Below, piece after piece: positions 2,814-54,205 of a DNA stretch of 64,000 nt. The notes below the pieces were generated by a model. That model did no database searches, was not told the DNA's origin, and saw only the letters and a list, made by a program, of their open reading frames with translations. A program made the translations under genes and the position numbers. Origin of the DNA: Candidatus Saccharibacteria bacterium UBA1235. GTDB lineage: Bacteria > Patescibacteriota > Saccharimonadia > Saccharimonadales > Saccharimonadaceae. Each line of letters opens with the position of its first letter. The stretch's first letter is position 1. The stretch lies in contig DBWP01000015.1 in NCBI GenBank assembly GCA_002309075.1, positions 1,612 through 65,611 on the forward strand. The letters are read 5' to 3'.

Positions 2814-3390
2814 ACTTTTTTACCGATTTTTTCGCCGGTTTTTTCGTCTTTTTTGCAGTTTTCTTCGCTGTTTTCTTCTGTGTAGGCTTTTTCGCGGACT
2901 TTTTCGCTGGTTTTTTCCCGGTTTTAGGTCTTTTCATAAAGCTAAAAACCGCCACTACGATTATTACGGCCGCTACAACCACCCCTGTTGCGAGATGTGC
3001 AGCTATCGAAATTGCCCCGCTATCTAAACCAGTCGCAGAACTTACGACCTCTAGAGTTTCCGTCGCTTCTTGAGGTTTTTCCGCCTCTTTCGCATCTTCC
3101 GTCGCCTCTGTTATAATAGTAACTTCCTCTGGCGCCGCCTCTGTAGTTTTATCAGCAGACTCAGCCGTTTTAACTGCCTGTTTAGGCGTTTTCTTAGTTT
3201 GCTTGGCTGCCGGCGCCGTCTCTGTTACGGTCTGCTCGTTTTCTATGGAAACCGCTGGCTCTGCCATTTCTTCGCCTATTTCTCTATATTCAAATTCTGA
3301 ACCTTTTTCATTTTCGCCCCCGTTCTTACTATATGTAAAAACAGCCCCTTCAGCGTTACCAGTTAAAACTGTTTCTACATTTTTTTCCAT
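2812..3390 (-). CDS. Hypothetical single-TM protein with acidic N-region and Lys/Ala/Pro-rich basic tail
   Basis: 192-aa ORF; TM at about aa 125-152; tail KKPAKKSAKKPTQKKTAKKTAKK; consensus promoter upstream. Confidence 0.75.
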   Translation of the reverse strand: MEKNVETVLTGNAEGAVFTYSKNGGENEKGSEFEYREIGEEMAEPAVSIENEQTVTETAPAAKQTKKTPKQAVKTAESADKTTEAAPEEVTIITEATEDAKEAEKPQEATETLEVVSSATGLDSGAISIAAHLATGVVVAAVIIVVAVFSFMKRPKTGKKPAKKSAKKPTQKKTAKKTAKKTKKPAKKSVKK

Positions 3391-3400
3391 AATATACTAC

Positions 3401-3433
3401 CATTATAGCACACATTACCATTTTTGTCAAGAT
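3401..3433 (-). promoter_or_regulatory. Sigma70-type promoter TTGACA-N17-TATAAT
   Basis: Minus strand reads atcTTGACAaaaatggtaatgtgTGcTATAATg. Confidence 0.85.
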
Positions 3434-3471
3434 AAACTAGTTGGTCATCCAGATATAGCGTTTAGTCTTTG

Positions 3472-5497
3472 CTATTTAGCTACGCAACGAACCGCTGCCC
3501 CAATGCGTTTATTAGAAGAAGCAATCTGTCCTGACGCTATTCTATACGCGAAATTACTATCATCGACAGTGGAAGTCCAATAGCTCCCACCGATATCAGT
3601 AGAATACGAACCATTCATATAGTGACCAGAGTTGAAGAGAGACAAAGCGGCGAAATTAGTATTTATTAAAGTATCATATTCCGCAGAAGATAACAATCTC
3701 CAACCTTTAGGGCAAATGTCTGAGGTTGCGTTTTGCCCATCCGTACCTATACTCGCCCCTGTACCGGCAGTTGCCGCCGCATAAGAGTAATAACTATAAC
3801 ACGGGGAGTTATTGACGCACTTCGTAGTGTTAGTATTATAAACATATTGTTGTCTATTAGTACTGAAATCTATACTAGAAGCCGGAAGAACATAATTGGA
3901 TACCACATTAGAATCAGCTGGGGTTAAAGTTGTTTTACCGGCAAGGTCCAAATTTGTTGTCATATAATAAAAGCCGCCAATATTCGTAACGCTATATTTT
4001 TTACCATCACGTCCATCTACGAGGGTGGTAGAATCGCCATCGTTTGGCATCAACTCCGCAAGTTCCACGCTTGTTATATTCTGCATTGTTGGGCCGTTGT
4101 AAATGCAGCGTACAGAAACGCCGTTAGGGCGGTTGCCGTTCTTTTGTAAAATAATACTCGATGGGTAGACGAAGAGACGGTACATACCAGTGCTACCATA
4201 ATATGTGGAAGACCAGAAGGAGCCATACTCGCCTTTGCTACTAACTGACCCCTCGTTGAAATAGCCAGAAAGAGAAGCCTTAAGAGCTAGAACGAAGTTT
4301 GTATCGTTACTAGAATAGGCTGCGTAAAGAGCCTGGTATTCACCGGATGACGACCCTCCGGTTGGCAATCTCCAGCCCTTAGGGCAAATATCTTCTGTGG
4401 CGTTACCTGATGGAGAGCCTGAGCTTGTTCCGTTACCATAACAGTAAGAGCCTGCTGATGCGGCACAAAAATTATAATAGACTCCTATTTTGCCCGTTAC
4501 GCTAGTTTGTCCCATAGCGACAGGTTGGGTTTGGTCCTTATTTACAGCACTAGAGAGAGGAACCGAATAGCTATAAGAACTAGTCCAGCTCGAGGCCCCA
4601 GCCGTAGCGTACTGGTTTCCCGCCGAACGATTACCACTCTTCAGGCTAATTAACGAAGCCTCAGAGGCGTTAGTGTTGGAAGTAGTAATATTATTTAAGA
4701 TTGTGCTATTAATAAGATCCAACGCAAGATTATCTAGCATCCAATAGTTACCATCGGCGAGTTTCCCAATCGTGTATTTTGTTCCGTCGCGTTCGTCTTT
4801 TACCGTAGCCGTAGATCCGCTAGTTGGAAGAAGACTAGCAAGCGTCGAAGCCGTCATATTTTGCATAACTGGCGTCGGGTCTGGGTTTGCAGTTACGGCG
4901 AAAGTGATGGTGGATTGGTAGGTGCCTGGAGTTTGGGATGCGTTGATTCTGGAGCCGAAGGAAATACTGGTGGTATCGCCAGTGGTTACGGTGTCTAGGC
5001 TATTTAGGTTTATGGTGGTTGGAATAGGGAGATAGTTAGTTGCAGTTTGGGTGGTGGTGTTAGTGTTAATCTTATAGCCCCAGTGGTTTACAGTAAAATC
5101 ACAAGTTGCTGCAGTTTGTATTGTACATGTGTAGCCTCCGTCTTTTGGAGCGAGGGTTGGGATGATGTTAGAACTATCTTCTTTTGATACTAGATTAGTG
5201 TTTGGTATGTTCATGACGAGGTTATAGCCCCATTCATTACTGGTTGCAACACTTACTATAACGTTCTTTTCATTAAAGCCGGCAGAAGAAAGAGAGGATG
5301 GGGCGACATTCATGGAAGTAGTGCTTCCCATAGCTACACCGTCAGAATTGAAGAGCTTTACTTCCAGGATTTCGCCTTCTGGAATGGTGACGGAGAAATC
5401 GTAGGCGGAAACATTAGGAGAAAAGTTTGGTAATAATCCCAATAAAAAAGCTATACATATAATATACCCCCCCCCCGATAGCTATTTTTTTGATCAT
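3472..5497 (-). CDS. Surface protein with WxL-like N-domain and two Fib_succ_major (FISUMP) domains; frameshifted at a G10 tract in the signal peptide
   Basis: KDERDG..Y.I.KLADGNYWM..NL, YYN.CAA.AG, DICPKGWRLP and SVRC motifs occur twice. ATG at 5497 with GAGGT RBS is one base out of frame with the 656-aa ORF; G9 restores MIKKIAIGGGYIICIAFLLGLLPNFSPNVSA. Confidence 0.8.
4081..4880 (-). repeat. Paralogous segment shared with about 36500-37290 (first FISUMP domain)
   Basis: Near-identical nucleotide stretches, e.g. ttatctagcatccaatagttaccatcggcgagttt versus ttatctagcatccagtagttaccatcggcgagttt. Confidence 0.85.
5467..5476 (-). repeat. G10 homopolymer (C10 on plus strand) in signal-peptide coding region
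   Basis: aatata-cccccccccc-gata on plus strand. Confidence 0.9.
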
Positions 5498-5614
5498 TTT
5501 TACCTCGTGGTTATGAAATAATTATAACATAAACAAAAACCAAACGTGTTATAATTATCTCATGGGTCTAAAACCAGCACGTTATAGCTGATAAAGGAAT
5601 GTTCGGGGGTAAAA

Positions 5615-35842: not shown

Positions 35843-37912
35843 CTAAGAAGTCTTGAAAATGCAGCGAGCATATAACCCGGCGCTACTCGATAAATCGTAG
35901 CCAGAATATATACTGCCGTAATTTGCGTATAAAGAAAGCGGTAGATTATTATCATCGGCATCTGCAGTCCACCAAGCAGCGTGATCAACCCAGGAGAACC
36001 AAGTGTCTGGACCCTGTTGTCCTACAAAAATCACACCTCCACCTACCGCAGGATACCAATAATCGTTTAGTATCTCTATATCGAAAGCAAACTCATCAGA
36101 CTTAGGAATTCGCCACCCCGCCGGACAAATATCCTGGCTTATCGCGTTAGCCGTATAATCGCTAAGGCAGGACGTCCCGGCAGATACCGCACAATAATTA
36201 TACCAAGCGCCATAATCTGAATTTCCACTATAAGTAGCAACCGGTTGGCCTGAGATGGCATCAGGGCTAGAATTATTAGGATCAAAATCTACGCCCGACG
36301 AAGTGATATCGAAATCCGAACCAGAATAATTCGAAAGACCATCCTTCTTCACCGTACCAATAAACCTAAGATTTTGGTTCATCCAATATTCGCCACCGAT
36401 ATTCATAATCTGATACTCGTTTCCGTCACGTTTATCCGTAAGCGTGGTTGTATCGCCGTTACTTGGCATAAGTTCTGCGAGTTTTGCGCTCGTCACGCTC
36501 TGCATGGTTGGGGCGTCGTAAACGCAGCGTATAGAGTAGCCGTAGTTGCGTCTACTGCCACCCTGCGGATAGACCTTCGACGCGTAGACGCTGAGGAGGT
36601 ACATATTCGTGGTACTGCCGTATGCAGAAGACCAGAAGCCGCCGTTTGAGCCCTGATTGCCAGCTGAGCCATTGTAGAAGTAGCCAGAGAGGGGCGTTTT
36701 AAGGGCGTTTACGAAGGATGCGGCGTTACTAGAGTGAGCTGCGTAAAGGGTCTGGTATTCGCCGGTTGGCATTCTCCAGCCTTTAGGACAGATGTCTTCT
36801 GTGGCGTTACCGGATGGAGAACCTTCGCTTGTTCCGTTACCATAGCAATACGATCCTGCCGAGGCGGCGCAATAGTTGTAGTAGACGCCTACCTTGCCAG
36901 TTCCAGACTGACCCATAGCGAGAGGTTGGGTAGTATCTTTATTTGTGGCGTTAACTAGTGGAGCGGAGTAGCTATAAGACGAGGTCCAGTTTGAGACGCC
37001 AGCGGTAGCATATTGGTCTCCTGCAGAGCGAGCGCCGTGTTGTAGGCTTTCAATTGAAGTCGTGGTAGCGTTAGTATTAGTTTTGGAGAGATTATTTAGA
37101 ACTGTAGAATTCGTAAGATCTAATGCGAGATTATCTAGCATCCAGTAGTTACCATCGGCGAGTTTTCCGATCGTGTATTTTGTTCCATCACGTTCGTCTT
37201 TTACCGTAGTCGTAGATCCGCTACTCGGCATGAGTGATGCGAGCGTAGACGTCGTTATATTTTGCATAATCGGGGTTGGGTCTGGGTTTGCCGTGGCCGC
37301 AAAAATGATCGTCGTAGAATAGGCTCCCGGAGCCTGAGTCGCATTAACTTTAGACCCAAAAGAAAGATAAGTTGGATCGTTTGCGATACCGTTGCTGCCG
37401 TCAGCCCCAGTCCATTTATTTAATGTAACGCTTGTTGGCACCGGAAGATAATTCGTTGCGGCCCGAGTACGAGTCGCGCTGTTAATCTTATAACCCCAAC
37501 GGTTCACGGTAAAGTCACAAGTATCTGCAGTCTCCGGAGTACAAGTATATCCCCCGGATTTAGAAGCTAAATTAGAGATCGTATTATTCTCTAAAGATGT
37601 TAGTTTTCTATTCGCTACACTCATAACTAGCGTATAACCAAAGTCGTTATTCGTAGAAACGCTAATCGTCACGTTCTTTTCATTAAAAGCCGCAGAAGAT
37701 AAAGAAGCCGGAGCAACATTTAATGAAGCTTTAGCCGTATCTCCCGTTCCATCTGTGTTTACTTTTACTTCAAGGATCGGATCATTTGGGACAGTAAGCT
37801 GAACATTATATCCCGAACCAGCCGCAAAAACATCAGAAAATAGAAAAACTGCGCCGCTTAAAAGACATACGACCCCTCCGCGGAGGACATTCTTTAAAAA
37901 CCCTCTTGTCAT
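35843..37912 (-). CDS. Surface protein with WxL-like N-domain and two Fib_succ_major domains (paralog of 3472-5497)
   Basis: Signal peptide MTRGFLKNVLRGGVVCLL...VFA after TGCTATAAT-N6; same domain motifs as the paralog. Confidence 0.85.
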   Translation of the reverse strand: MTRGFLKNVLRGGVVCLLSGAVFLFSDVFAAGSGYNVQLTVPNDPILEVKVNTDGTGDTAKASLNVAPASLSSAAFNEKNVTISVSTNNDFGYTLVMSVANRKLTSLENNTISNLASKSGGYTCTPETADTCDFTVNRWGYKINSATRTRAATNYLPVPTSVTLNKWTGADGSNGIANDPTYLSFGSKVNATQAPGAYSTTIIFAATANPDPTPIMQNITTSTLASLMPSSGSTTTVKDERDGTKYTIGKLADGNYWMLDNLALDLTNSTVLNNLSKTNTNATTTSIESLQHGARSAGDQYATAGVSNWTSSYSYSAPLVNATNKDTTQPLAMGQSGTGKVGVYYNYCAASAGSYCYGNGTSEGSPSGNATEDICPKGWRMPTGEYQTLYAAHSSNAASFVNALKTPLSGYFYNGSAGNQGSNGGFWSSAYGSTTNMYLLSVYASKVYPQGGSRRNYGYSIRCVYDAPTMQSVTSAKLAELMPSNGDTTTLTDKRDGNEYQIMNIGGEYWMNQNLRFIGTVKKDGLSNYSGSDFDITSSGVDFDPNNSSPDAISGQPVATYSGNSDYGAWYNYCAVSAGTSCLSDYTANAISQDICPAGWRIPKSDEFAFDIEILNDYWYPAVGGGVIFVGQQGPDTWFSWVDHAAWWTADADDNNLPLSLYANYGSIYSGYDLSSSAGLYARCIFKTS

Positions 37913-54049: not shown

Positions 54050-54205
54050 ATAAGTATTACCTTTCTATGATTATTATATAATATTTTTTGCTTAGAGAAT
54101 AGAGGCATTTTTTTAATTCTCTGCCCACCTTCTAGCATGGGGCAAATTATTTTTCAACCCCCCACCTTTCTACCCCTGTTCTTAAAAATATGGTATAATG
54201 GAAAA

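What the first reader, a model, noticed from the sequence alone, without database searches (positions are those of the whole stretch)
5440..5510. Phase-variation switch: a G10 tract puts a FISUMP adhesin-like gene out of frame
Seen: extended -10 (5521-5529), GAGGT RBS and ATG at 5497 give MIKKIAI-G10, which then runs into a stop. With G9 (or G12) the frame reads into a complete signal peptide and a 674-aa protein. The ORF track only finds an internal TTG. The paralog at 35843-37912 has RGGVVC at the equivalent position with no tract. Established: slipped-strand mispairing at poly-G tracts drives ON/OFF switching of surface proteins in Campylobacter, Neisseria and Helicobacter. Inference: contingency-locus control of host-attachment proteins in an epibiont.
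Basis: partly seen in the sequence, partly recalled or inferred. Interest (0 to 1): 0.72.

Follow-up and report, generated by a model that had tools for sequence, protein, structure and literature searches.

The report
Poly-G on/off switch, surface-protein gene
A run of ten G's just after the start codon puts a secreted, lectin-like surface-protein gene of a tiny rumen Saccharibacteria bacterium out of frame. The same kind of G-run recurs at the starts and promoters of surface-protein genes across its genus, so it is most likely a slippage-driven random on/off switch caught in the OFF state, although switching at this locus itself has not been seen.

Summary
On the minus strand there is an extended -10 (5529-5521), GAGGT (5506-5502), ATG (5497) and seven codons, then G10 (5476-5467). 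As assembled, translation stops after 27 aa. G9 or G12 would join a Sec-type signal peptide to a stop-free 669-codon frame encoding a FISUMP (TIGR02145) protein.

- **Outlier:** it is the only G/C run longer than 7 in the 0.61 Mb genome.
- **Not one assembler's error:** two other assemblies of the same strain also read G10.
- **No repair:** no MutS, MutL or NucS domain was found.
- **Genus-wide:** 92 of 121 genomes of the genus carry runs of at least G9, against 36 of 149 in other genera of the order. Of 77 runs examined, 26 lie just after start codons of surface-protein genes (15 out of frame) and 19 fill promoter spacers.
- **Length varies in a relative:** one gene reads G9 in one assembly and G10 in another, with 918 identical bases downstream.

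Verdict: a slipped-strand contingency locus caught OFF (about 0.7). This is a known mechanism. I found no paper reporting it in Saccharibacteria, though this scan has noted it repeatedly.

The parts
5521..5529 (-). Extended -10 promoter element TGTTATAAT. No recognisable -35.
   Evidence: Read. The consensus scan finds no -35/-10 pair here. The paralogues use TGCTATAAT in the same way.
5502..5506 (-). Shine-Dalgarno-like GAGGT, four bases before the ATG.
   Evidence: Read. The paralogues instead have the ATG about 7 bases after the -10 and look leaderless.
5495..5497 (-). ATG start codon of the full-length (ON) protein.
5467..5476 (-). G10 homopolymer (C10 on the plus strand) at codons 8-11. 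This is the proposed slippage switch. G9 and G12 are in frame; G10 and G11 are out of frame.
   Evidence: only G/C run longer than 7 in the genome; expectation. G10 is also read in Logan contigs L111 and L112.
5414..5416 (-). TAA that ends the 27-aa product in the G10 (OFF) frame.
5404..5497 (-). Signal-peptide-coding region when in frame: MIKK, then the hydrophobic core IAIGGGYIICIAFLLGLL, then PNFSPNVSA, with cleavage predicted before YDF.
   Evidence: Translated by hand. The pattern matches the paralogues' leaders, which end ...VFA|A and ...AFA|D. No signal-peptide program was available.
3472..5481 (-). Open frame of 669 codons plus a TAG stop, forming the body of the gene. There are no internal stops. 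The first start codon in this frame is the TTG at 5442.
   Evidence: open_frame 669, no stops.
4873..5403 (-). N-terminal beta-sandwich domain (residues 14-190 of the 656-aa ORF), weakly pilin-like.
   Evidence: AlphaFold2 model with mean pLDDT 84.9. The best PDB fold matches are CfaB-type chaperone-usher pilins, E 4e-5, TM 0.55 on the target. This domain is 92.5% identical to the paralogue on contig C10.
4105..4863 (-). First FISUMP (Fib_succ_major) domain.
   Evidence: PF09603 E 1.7e-18 in 3 stretches. TIGR02145 86.2 bits against a cut-off of 41.65. Conserved columns in alignment A2.
3484..4083 (-). Second FISUMP domain, with a weak Lcl_C match at its end.
35843..37912 (-). Paralogue without a run. 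At the homologous position it has CGC GGA GGG GTC GTA TGT (RGGVVC).
   Evidence: It is 56% identical to the target.

Best explanation
The G10 run is a hypermutable simple-sequence repeat that acts as a translational phase-variation switch for a secreted FISUMP-domain surface protein.

**Proposed mechanism.**

1. During replication the nascent and template strands mispair within the run and add or remove a G.
2. The genome has no recognisable mismatch repair, so such changes persist.
3. With G9 or G12, the ATG at 5497 reads through a Sec signal peptide into the 674/675-aa protein, which is exported (ON).
4. With G10 or G11, translation stops after 27 or 16 codons. No usable start precedes the signal-less TTG at 5442 (OFF).
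5. The sampled population is predominantly G10, so OFF.
6. The cell line can therefore show or hide one member of a family of roughly 20 paralogous surface proteins at random. This may help in partner-cell binding, or in escape from phage or host antibodies.

**Shown here.**

- The anatomy and its frame logic.
- That the run is an outlier in the genome.
- G10 in three assemblies of one strain.
- Absence of repair domains.
- Recurrence of such runs across the genus.
- Length differences in relatives.

**Inferred.**

- That the run length actually fluctuates at this locus.
- That the protein is surface-exposed and binds something.
- That switching is selected for.
For: 1. **Anatomy.** Promoter, SD, ATG, seven codons, then G10. 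Only G9 and G12 join the signal peptide to the long frame.
2. **Outlier.** It is the only G/C run longer than 7 in 610 kb, in a genome where long G/C runs are otherwise depleted. There is no other SSR.
3. **Intact body.** The 669 codons downstream are free of stops. The conserved FISUMP columns are present, including the CPKGW and RC motifs in both domains.
4. **Not one assembler's error.** Logan contigs from SRR5324853 and SRR094437 are identical to the window over 2.2 kb and both read G10.
5. **No repair.** MutS_I was found in 0 of 31 genomes, MutL in 0 of 21 and NucS in 0 of 21 except one weak hit. These counts include the own genome, and the control genomes gave matches.
6. **Origin.** The run is positionally homologous to GGAGGGG or GGGGTGGG (Gly-Gly) in the paralogues' signal peptides. 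It therefore arose by purification and extension of a G-rich stretch.
7. **Genus-wide enrichment.** Runs of at least G9 occur in 92 of 121 genomes of the genus, against 36 of 149 genomes of other genera in the order.
8. **Placement of the 77 runs fetched.**
   - 26 lie 10-160 bases after a start codon with G on the sense strand. Of these, 15 are out of frame, 10 in frame and 1 ambiguous.
   - 19 lie between -35 and -10 boxes, giving spacers of 15-22 bases.
9. **Gene types.** The genes downstream of the fetched runs are mainly DUF285/LRR (13) and FISUMP (5, in four other species, at different codon positions).
10. **Length polymorphism in relatives.**
   - 19 metagenome contigs of one DUF285 family show G9 thirteen times, G10 five times and G11 once.
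   - L211 (G9) and L072 (G10) are identical for 918 bases downstream and 37 bases upstream.
   - L199 (G11) and L207 (G9) have flanks 94-96% identical.
11. **Accepted thresholds.** G/C runs of 7 or more are the accepted cut-off. All runs of 8 or more in C. jejuni NCTC 11168 have been seen to vary (PMC6321876).
Against: - No length heterogeneity has been observed at this locus. The MAG and two Logan contigs all read G10 and all belong to one strain, with 0 mismatches in 2.2 kb. They are therefore not independent populations.
- No orthologue exists elsewhere to compare. The protein cluster has one member among about 15 billion proteins. The region next to ychF is not syntenic in the nearest relatives.
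- This genome has only one such run, whereas some relatives have ten or more, so a 'system' cannot be claimed for this organism.
- Absence of mismatch repair holds for the whole order, yet run enrichment is genus-specific. Repair loss alone therefore does not explain the runs.
- The function of the protein is untested.
Confidence: 0.7

Rival explanations
1. Recent dead end. A formerly in-frame G9 run gained one G and the gene is now simply a young pseudogene. No selection maintains the switching.
For: All available assemblies read G10, the OFF state. The family has about 20 paralogues, so losing one copy is cheap. This genome has no other long run.
Against: There is no second lesion in 669 codons. 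An in-frame G9 in a genome that otherwise avoids G/C runs longer than 7 needs explaining in its own right. Without mismatch repair a G10 run is physically reversible at a high rate. Relatives keep many such runs, both in and out of frame, in intact genes.
Confidence: 0.15
2. Sequencing or assembly artefact. The true length is G9 or G12 and the gene is ordinary and constitutively in frame.
For: Homopolymers of 10 are harder to call. Two Logan contigs end 14 and 102 bases past the run, so coverage or graph structure there is not clean.
Against: Three assemblies made with different software agree on G10. The genome shows no general homopolymer problem: there are 26 A/T runs of 8 and 2 of 9. Even if the true length were G9, the run would still be an in-frame hypermutable tract at the same position, so the switch reading would survive.
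Confidence: 0.07
3. Leaky expression without any change in the DNA. RNA polymerase slippage, or a +1 ribosomal slip on the G run, restores the frame in a fraction of transcripts or translations, so G10 gives a low constitutive level rather than OFF.
For: A run of identical bases allows perfect re-pairing after a one-base slip. The needed shift is +1 on GGG-G. This does not exclude DNA-level switching.
Against: Known productive transcriptional slippage mostly uses A/T runs (own knowledge). No stimulatory element such as a downstream hairpin, an upstream internal SD or a hungry codon is evident in 5400-5480. It does not explain promoter-spacer runs in relatives or the variation in DNA length.
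Confidence: 0.08

Closest known systems
Poly-G/C contingency genes of Campylobacter jejuni and other Campylobacter (PhasomeIt survey, PMC6321876; review PMC8355987)
   Same: A G/C homopolymer of 8 or more inside the reading frame. A small, low-GC genome without MutS/MutL repair. One-base slippage toggles full-length translation. Many loci are found out of frame in genome sequences. The genes affect the cell surface.
   Different: In Campylobacter most targets are glycosyltransferases and capsule, LOS or flagellin-modification genes, and runs lie anywhere in the ORF. Here the target is a secreted lectin-like FISUMP protein and the run sits in the signal-peptide-coding part. The organism is an ultra-small CPR epibiont. 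Switching has not been measured here.
Neisseria pilC (poly-G) and opa (CTCTT) repeats in the signal-peptide-coding region (own knowledge; Neisseria phasome survey PMC5953494)
   Same: The repeat lies within the leader-peptide codons of an adhesin gene family. Each paralogue carries its own switch, so a population shows combinations of surface proteins. This matches the DUF285 family in relatives: of 11 run-bearing copies across two genomes, 3 are in frame and 8 out.
   Different: The phylum and the protein families are unrelated. In this genome only one of about 20 FISUMP paralogues has a run.
Homopolymeric-tract genes of Helicobacter canadensis and H. pylori (PMC2823697)
   Same: Dozens of G/C runs associated with coding regions, both transcriptional and translational, in a repair-poor host-associated bacterium.
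   Different: Different gene content. Those tracts were verified experimentally; these were not.
Promoter-spacer tracts: Neisseria meningitidis porA/opc poly-G/C and Mycoplasma hyorhinis vlp poly-A (own knowledge)
   Same: Applies to the 19 runs seen in relatives between TTGACA and TATAAT, where run length sets a spacer of 15-22 bases.
   Different: Not the arrangement at the locus under study, which is translational.

Membership tests
SSR-mediated (slipped-strand) phase-variable contingency locus | Simple-sequence repeat at or above the length known to be hypermutable (G/C of 7-8 or more) | tested here: met
   G10 at 5476-5467. Threshold taken from PMC6321876.
SSR-mediated (slipped-strand) phase-variable contingency locus | The repeat is placed so that one-unit changes toggle full-length expression | tested here: met
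   G9 and G12 give the 674/675-aa protein with a signal peptide. G10 gives a 27-aa product and G11 a 16-aa product.
SSR-mediated (slipped-strand) phase-variable contingency locus | The repeat is over-represented against the genome background | tested here: met
   It is the only G/C run longer than 7. The expectation is 0.011-0.146.
SSR-mediated (slipped-strand) phase-variable contingency locus | Repeat length varies within or between populations at this locus | not testable with these tools
Three assemblies of one strain all read G10. There is no other copy in the protein or metagenome collections.
SSR-mediated (slipped-strand) phase-variable contingency locus | Repeat length varies at equivalent loci of relatives while the flanks stay the same | tested here: met
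   L211 (G9) and L072 (G10) are identical for 918 bases downstream and 37 bases upstream. One gene family shows a spread of G9, G10 and G11. L199 is G11 against G9 in L207.
SSR-mediated (slipped-strand) phase-variable contingency locus | The gene is otherwise intact, with no secondary lesions | tested here: met
   669-codon open frame and conserved domain motifs.
SSR-mediated (slipped-strand) phase-variable contingency locus | Reversible, high-frequency ON/OFF change of the product | not testable with these tools
   This needs culture, single-cell or deep-read data.
SSR-mediated (slipped-strand) phase-variable contingency locus | Weak or absent post-replicative mismatch repair (a supporting feature, not strictly defining) | tested here: met
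   No MutS_I, MutL or NucS domain in the own genome or its relatives, with the control genomes giving matches.
FISUMP / Fib_succ_major domain proteins (TIGR02145, PF09603) | Match to the family model above its curated cut-off | tested here: met
   TIGR02145 86.2 bits against 41.65. PF09603 68 bits against 33.9.
Sec-exported surface protein or adhesin | N-terminal signal peptide in the ON frame | tested here: met
   By inspection only: MIKK, an 18-residue hydrophobic core, then VSA|Y. The pattern is the same as in the paralogues. No predictor was run.
Sec-exported surface protein or adhesin | Demonstrated binding to a partner cell or ligand | not tested
   There is only a weak fold resemblance of the N-terminal domain to chaperone-usher pilins. 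No sequence relative has a solved structure.

The most novel reading that the evidence does not exclude
This rumen-associated Saccharibacteria genus (probably Nanosyncoccus) may run a genus-wide poly-G 'phasome' with two kinds of switch. One lies in signal-peptide codons and the other in promoter spacers. Together they would control multi-copy surface-protein families (FISUMP lectin-like, DUF285/BspA-like LRR). In that case, mismatch-repair-less ultra-small epibionts would vary their surface coat at random, and perhaps their choice of partner cell or their phage and antibody exposure. I found no published SSR contingency system for the Candidate Phyla Radiation. The locus studied here would be one OFF-state member.
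Probability: 0.6. Interest if true: 0.75.

Novelty: new member of a known kind. Interest (0 to 1): 0.55.

Why it matters
Saccharibacteria live attached to other bacteria, and how they choose and hold their partner cells is an open question. Surface proteins that switch on and off at random would mean that a clonal population is a mixture of attachment types.

This has three consequences:
- It bears on host range, on co-culture success and on how MAG 'pseudogenes' are read. Genes such as this one are currently called from internal starts or as broken genes: the source's own call is a 613-aa fragment.
- It gives a short, concrete list of candidate host-interaction genes to test in the cultivable relatives.
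- It extends contingency loci, a concept built on a few pathogens, to a commensal lineage with a 0.6 Mb genome.

Tried and rejected
- **Read-level test.** The look-up of sequencing runs and read laying were both closed, so the tract-length distribution could not be measured.
- **Other copies of the locus.**
  - The protein search found only the window's own call.
  - The exact-product look-up found nothing.
  - A metagenome pattern scan with a variable gap across the run found nothing.
  - Contigs carrying the downstream neighbour start inside the gene, near window position 5008, and do not reach the run.
- **Orthologue comparison.** The region next to ychF differs in all the nearest relatives, so there is no orthologous run.
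- **A set of FISUMP proteins of slightly different lengths (P0012, P0014 and others).** I suspected run-length variants, but their contigs hold no homopolymer. Rejected.
- **DGR link for the FISUMP domains.** There is no reverse transcriptase in this genome, although a relative's FISUMP gene sits near an RT gene.
- **PDB.** The sequence search with the two FISUMP domains found nothing. The full-length fold search gave only weak pilin-like matches for the N-terminal domain.
- **First automatic classification of runs.** It placed six promoter-spacer runs in the coding class. I corrected this after reading the flanks.
- **Literature.** Five searches found no paper on SSR phase variation in Saccharibacteria or CPR. 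The hits concern host bacteria or nanopore errors.

Full report
**What is there**

Reading the minus strand:
- an extended -10 element TGTTATAAT at 5529-5521;
- GAGGT at 5506-5502;
- ATG at 5497-5495;
- the codons ATC AAA AAA ATA GCT ATC;
- ten G's at 5476-5467.

As assembled, the ATG frame reads MIKKIAIGGGVYYMYSFFIGIITKLFS and stops at TAA 5416-5414. One G more gives a TAG after 16 codons. One G fewer, or two more, joins the ATG to a 669-codon open frame (5481-3472). The product then begins MIKKIAIGGGYIICIAFLLGLLPNFSPNVSA|YDF, which is a basic head, an 18-residue hydrophobic core and a VSA cleavage motif. Its length is 674 or 675 aa.

In the long frame the first start codon is a TTG at 5442, after the hydrophobic core. 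The source's own gene call is a 613-aa fragment. So is its statement about the paralogue at 35843-37912, which begins MTRGFLKNVLRGGVVC.

**The protein**

- It matches TIGR02145 (FISUMP) at 86.2 bits against a cut-off of 41.65.
- It matches PF09603 at E 1.7e-18.
- An AlphaFold2 model has mean pLDDT 84.9. It shows an N-terminal beta sandwich (residues about 14-190) followed by two FISUMP domains.
- The sandwich gives weak fold matches to chaperone-usher pilins such as CfaB (E 4e-5, TM 0.55 on the target).
- The FISUMP part has no sequence relative of solved structure.

'Secreted, probably binding' is therefore a reasonable inference, but nothing more than that.

The genome holds about 20 paralogues, several at contig ends. 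The family is expanded in this genus and almost absent from other families of the order.

**Is the run more than chance?**

The genome has 610,597 bases in 18 contigs and is 41% G+C. Its G/C runs number 32 of length 6, two of length 7, none of length 8 or 9, and this one of length 10.

An independent-base model expects 15.7 runs of 7 or more (3 seen) and 0.146 runs of 10 or more. Extrapolating the observed decay gives about 0.011. Long G/C runs are thus avoided in this genome, and this one is an outlier. It also sits at codons 8-11 of a secreted-protein gene. No other short-unit repeat exists in the genome.

**Is G10 real?**

Two Logan contigs encode the identical neighbouring YchF protein. 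They come from runs SRR5324853 and SRR094437 and are identical to the window over 2.2 kb. Both read G10. G10 is therefore not an artefact of one assembler.

These contigs are the same strain, so they say nothing about variation between populations.

No other copy of the gene exists in the protein collection or in the metagenome contigs. The locus next to ychF is different in every near relative.

**Origin of the run**

I aligned the 5' ends of the target and three paralogues. The run occupies the place of CGC GGA GGG GTC, TGC GGA GGG GTC or CGG GGG TGG GTT in the paralogues' signal peptides. A Gly-Gly stretch has become a pure G run.

From the predicted cleavage site onward the target is 92.5% identical to the paralogue on contig C10. 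The leader and promoter, however, are unrelated, so the gene is a mosaic.

**Repair**

- The MutS mismatch-binding domain was found in 0 of 31 genomes.
- The MutL domain was found in 0 of 21.
- NucS was found in 0 of 21, apart from one weak hit in another species.

These counts include the own genome, and the control genomes gave matches. Slippage products in a G10 run would not be corrected, as in Campylobacter and Helicobacter. The absence holds for the whole order, so it permits the runs but does not explain them.

**The genus**

Runs of at least G9 occur in 92 of 121 genomes of the genus. They occur in only 36 of 149 genomes from other genera of the order, where it is mostly a single run. 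A few runs at contig ends are probably artefacts.

I fetched 77 distinct runs from over 30 genomes, including the target itself, and classified them:

| Class | Number | Detail |
|---|---|---|
| 10-160 bases after a start codon of a long ORF, G on the sense strand | 26 | 15 out of frame in the assembly, 10 in frame, 1 ambiguous |
| Filling the gap between a -35 box (TTGACA-like) and a -10 box | 19 | Spacers of 15-22 bases; only about half fall within 16-18 |
| Coding with C on the sense strand | 4 | |
| Elsewhere | 28 | |

The genes downstream of 34 fetched runs are mostly DUF285/LRR proteins (13) and FISUMP proteins (5). The FISUMP cases lie in four other species, and the run sits at different codons of the signal peptide. 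Examples are FALLM-GGG-ATA in L064 and L065 (both G10 and out of frame) and VILGA-GGG-YHY in L109. These runs therefore arose independently in the same protein family.

In the two genomes carrying the DUF285 family, 11 copies bear a run. By hand-reading the flanks, 3 are in frame and 8 are out.

**Length polymorphism in relatives**

A metagenome scan used the conserved flanks of that DUF285 family. It returned 19 contigs: G9 thirteen times, G10 five times and G11 once.

- Contig L211 (G9, in frame) and genome locus L072 (G10, out of frame) are identical for 918 bases downstream and 37 bases upstream of the run.
- L199 (G11) and L207 (G9) share flanks of 94-96% identity.

The run is thus the fastest-changing feature of these loci. 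That is the behaviour expected of a contingency repeat.

**Reading**

The mechanism is the classical one: slipped-strand mispairing in a homopolymer inside the leader-peptide codons, toggling translation of a surface protein.

The closest parallels are:
- Campylobacter poly-G genes. The survey PMC6321876 uses a cut-off of 7 or more, and all runs of 8 or more in strain NCTC 11168 were seen to vary.
- Neisseria pilC and opa (own knowledge).

The rivals are listed below. The last one does not exclude the main reading.

| Rival | Weight |
|---|---|
| A young pseudogene | 0.15 |
| A miscalled G9 | 0.07 |
| Frame restoration by RNA polymerase or ribosome slippage | 0.08 |

**Novelty**

Five full-text searches found no report of SSR phase variation in Saccharibacteria or other CPR bacteria.

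Earlier notes of this scan record the same kind of switch in at least 34 other Saccharibacteria genomes. Those notes are AI notes and are not independent proof. They agree with what I measured in this genus.

This locus is therefore one more member, in the OFF state, of a phenomenon that appears to be unpublished but is mechanistically familiar. The organism is probably a Nanosyncoccus-like rumen bacterium, judging from the record titles of the nearest relatives and from the sheep, goat and cattle sources.

Noticed in passing
Relatives: L055, L062, L067, L070, L106, L042 (G-sense, just downstream of the run): Many promoter-spacer poly-G runs are followed about 10-15 bases later by a conserved leader motif, ATAAAGGTTATAC. 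This suggests a paralogous family of poly-G-controlled genes with a shared 5' untranslated region.
   Followed up: no
77 runs in L021-L110: There is a strong strand bias. In functional positions the run reads G on the sense (non-template) strand 45 times and C 4 times. Gly being tolerated in leaders where Pro is not could explain the coding cases, but not the promoter cases.
   Followed up: partly
window 54151-54168 (minus strand); also genome C6:10542, C10:9500, C14:7429, C15:20408: A recurrent motif, (A/T)AGGTGGGGGGTTGAAAA followed after about 17 bases by TATGCTA. It looks like a promoter family with a G6 block directly upstream of the -35 box.
   Followed up: partly
L194 and L195 (ENA metagenome contigs), 3084-4494: A FISUMP gene of a related Saccharibacteria is followed by a 326-aa gene and a reverse-transcriptase (RVT_1) gene, which is a DGR-like layout. 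The window's own genome has no RT domain.
   Followed up: partly
window 4873-5403 versus genome C10:42290-42889: The mature N-terminal domain of the target is 92.5% identical to a paralogue on another contig, while the signal peptide and promoter are unrelated. This is a mosaic, or gene conversion, between paralogues.
   Followed up: partly
genome contig ends C5:3-290, C10:3-284, C9:3-686, C16 and C17 ends: FISUMP paralogues sit at several contig ends. Logan contigs also break inside the target gene, at about window 5008 and 5365-5453. The family fragments short-read assemblies.
   Followed up: no
L071-L078, L095 (DUF285 family of relatives): In copies ending ...CCT CAT + G10, the AT of the His codon plus the first G forms an ATG in frame with the downstream ORF. 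The 'OFF' length could therefore still allow weak internal initiation.
   Followed up: no
L081 (G080:C6:83-92): Another species has a near-twin of the target's layout: AGGAGG, ATG, five codons, G10, then a signal-peptide-like frame. It is out of frame at G10 and cut by the contig end.
   Followed up: no
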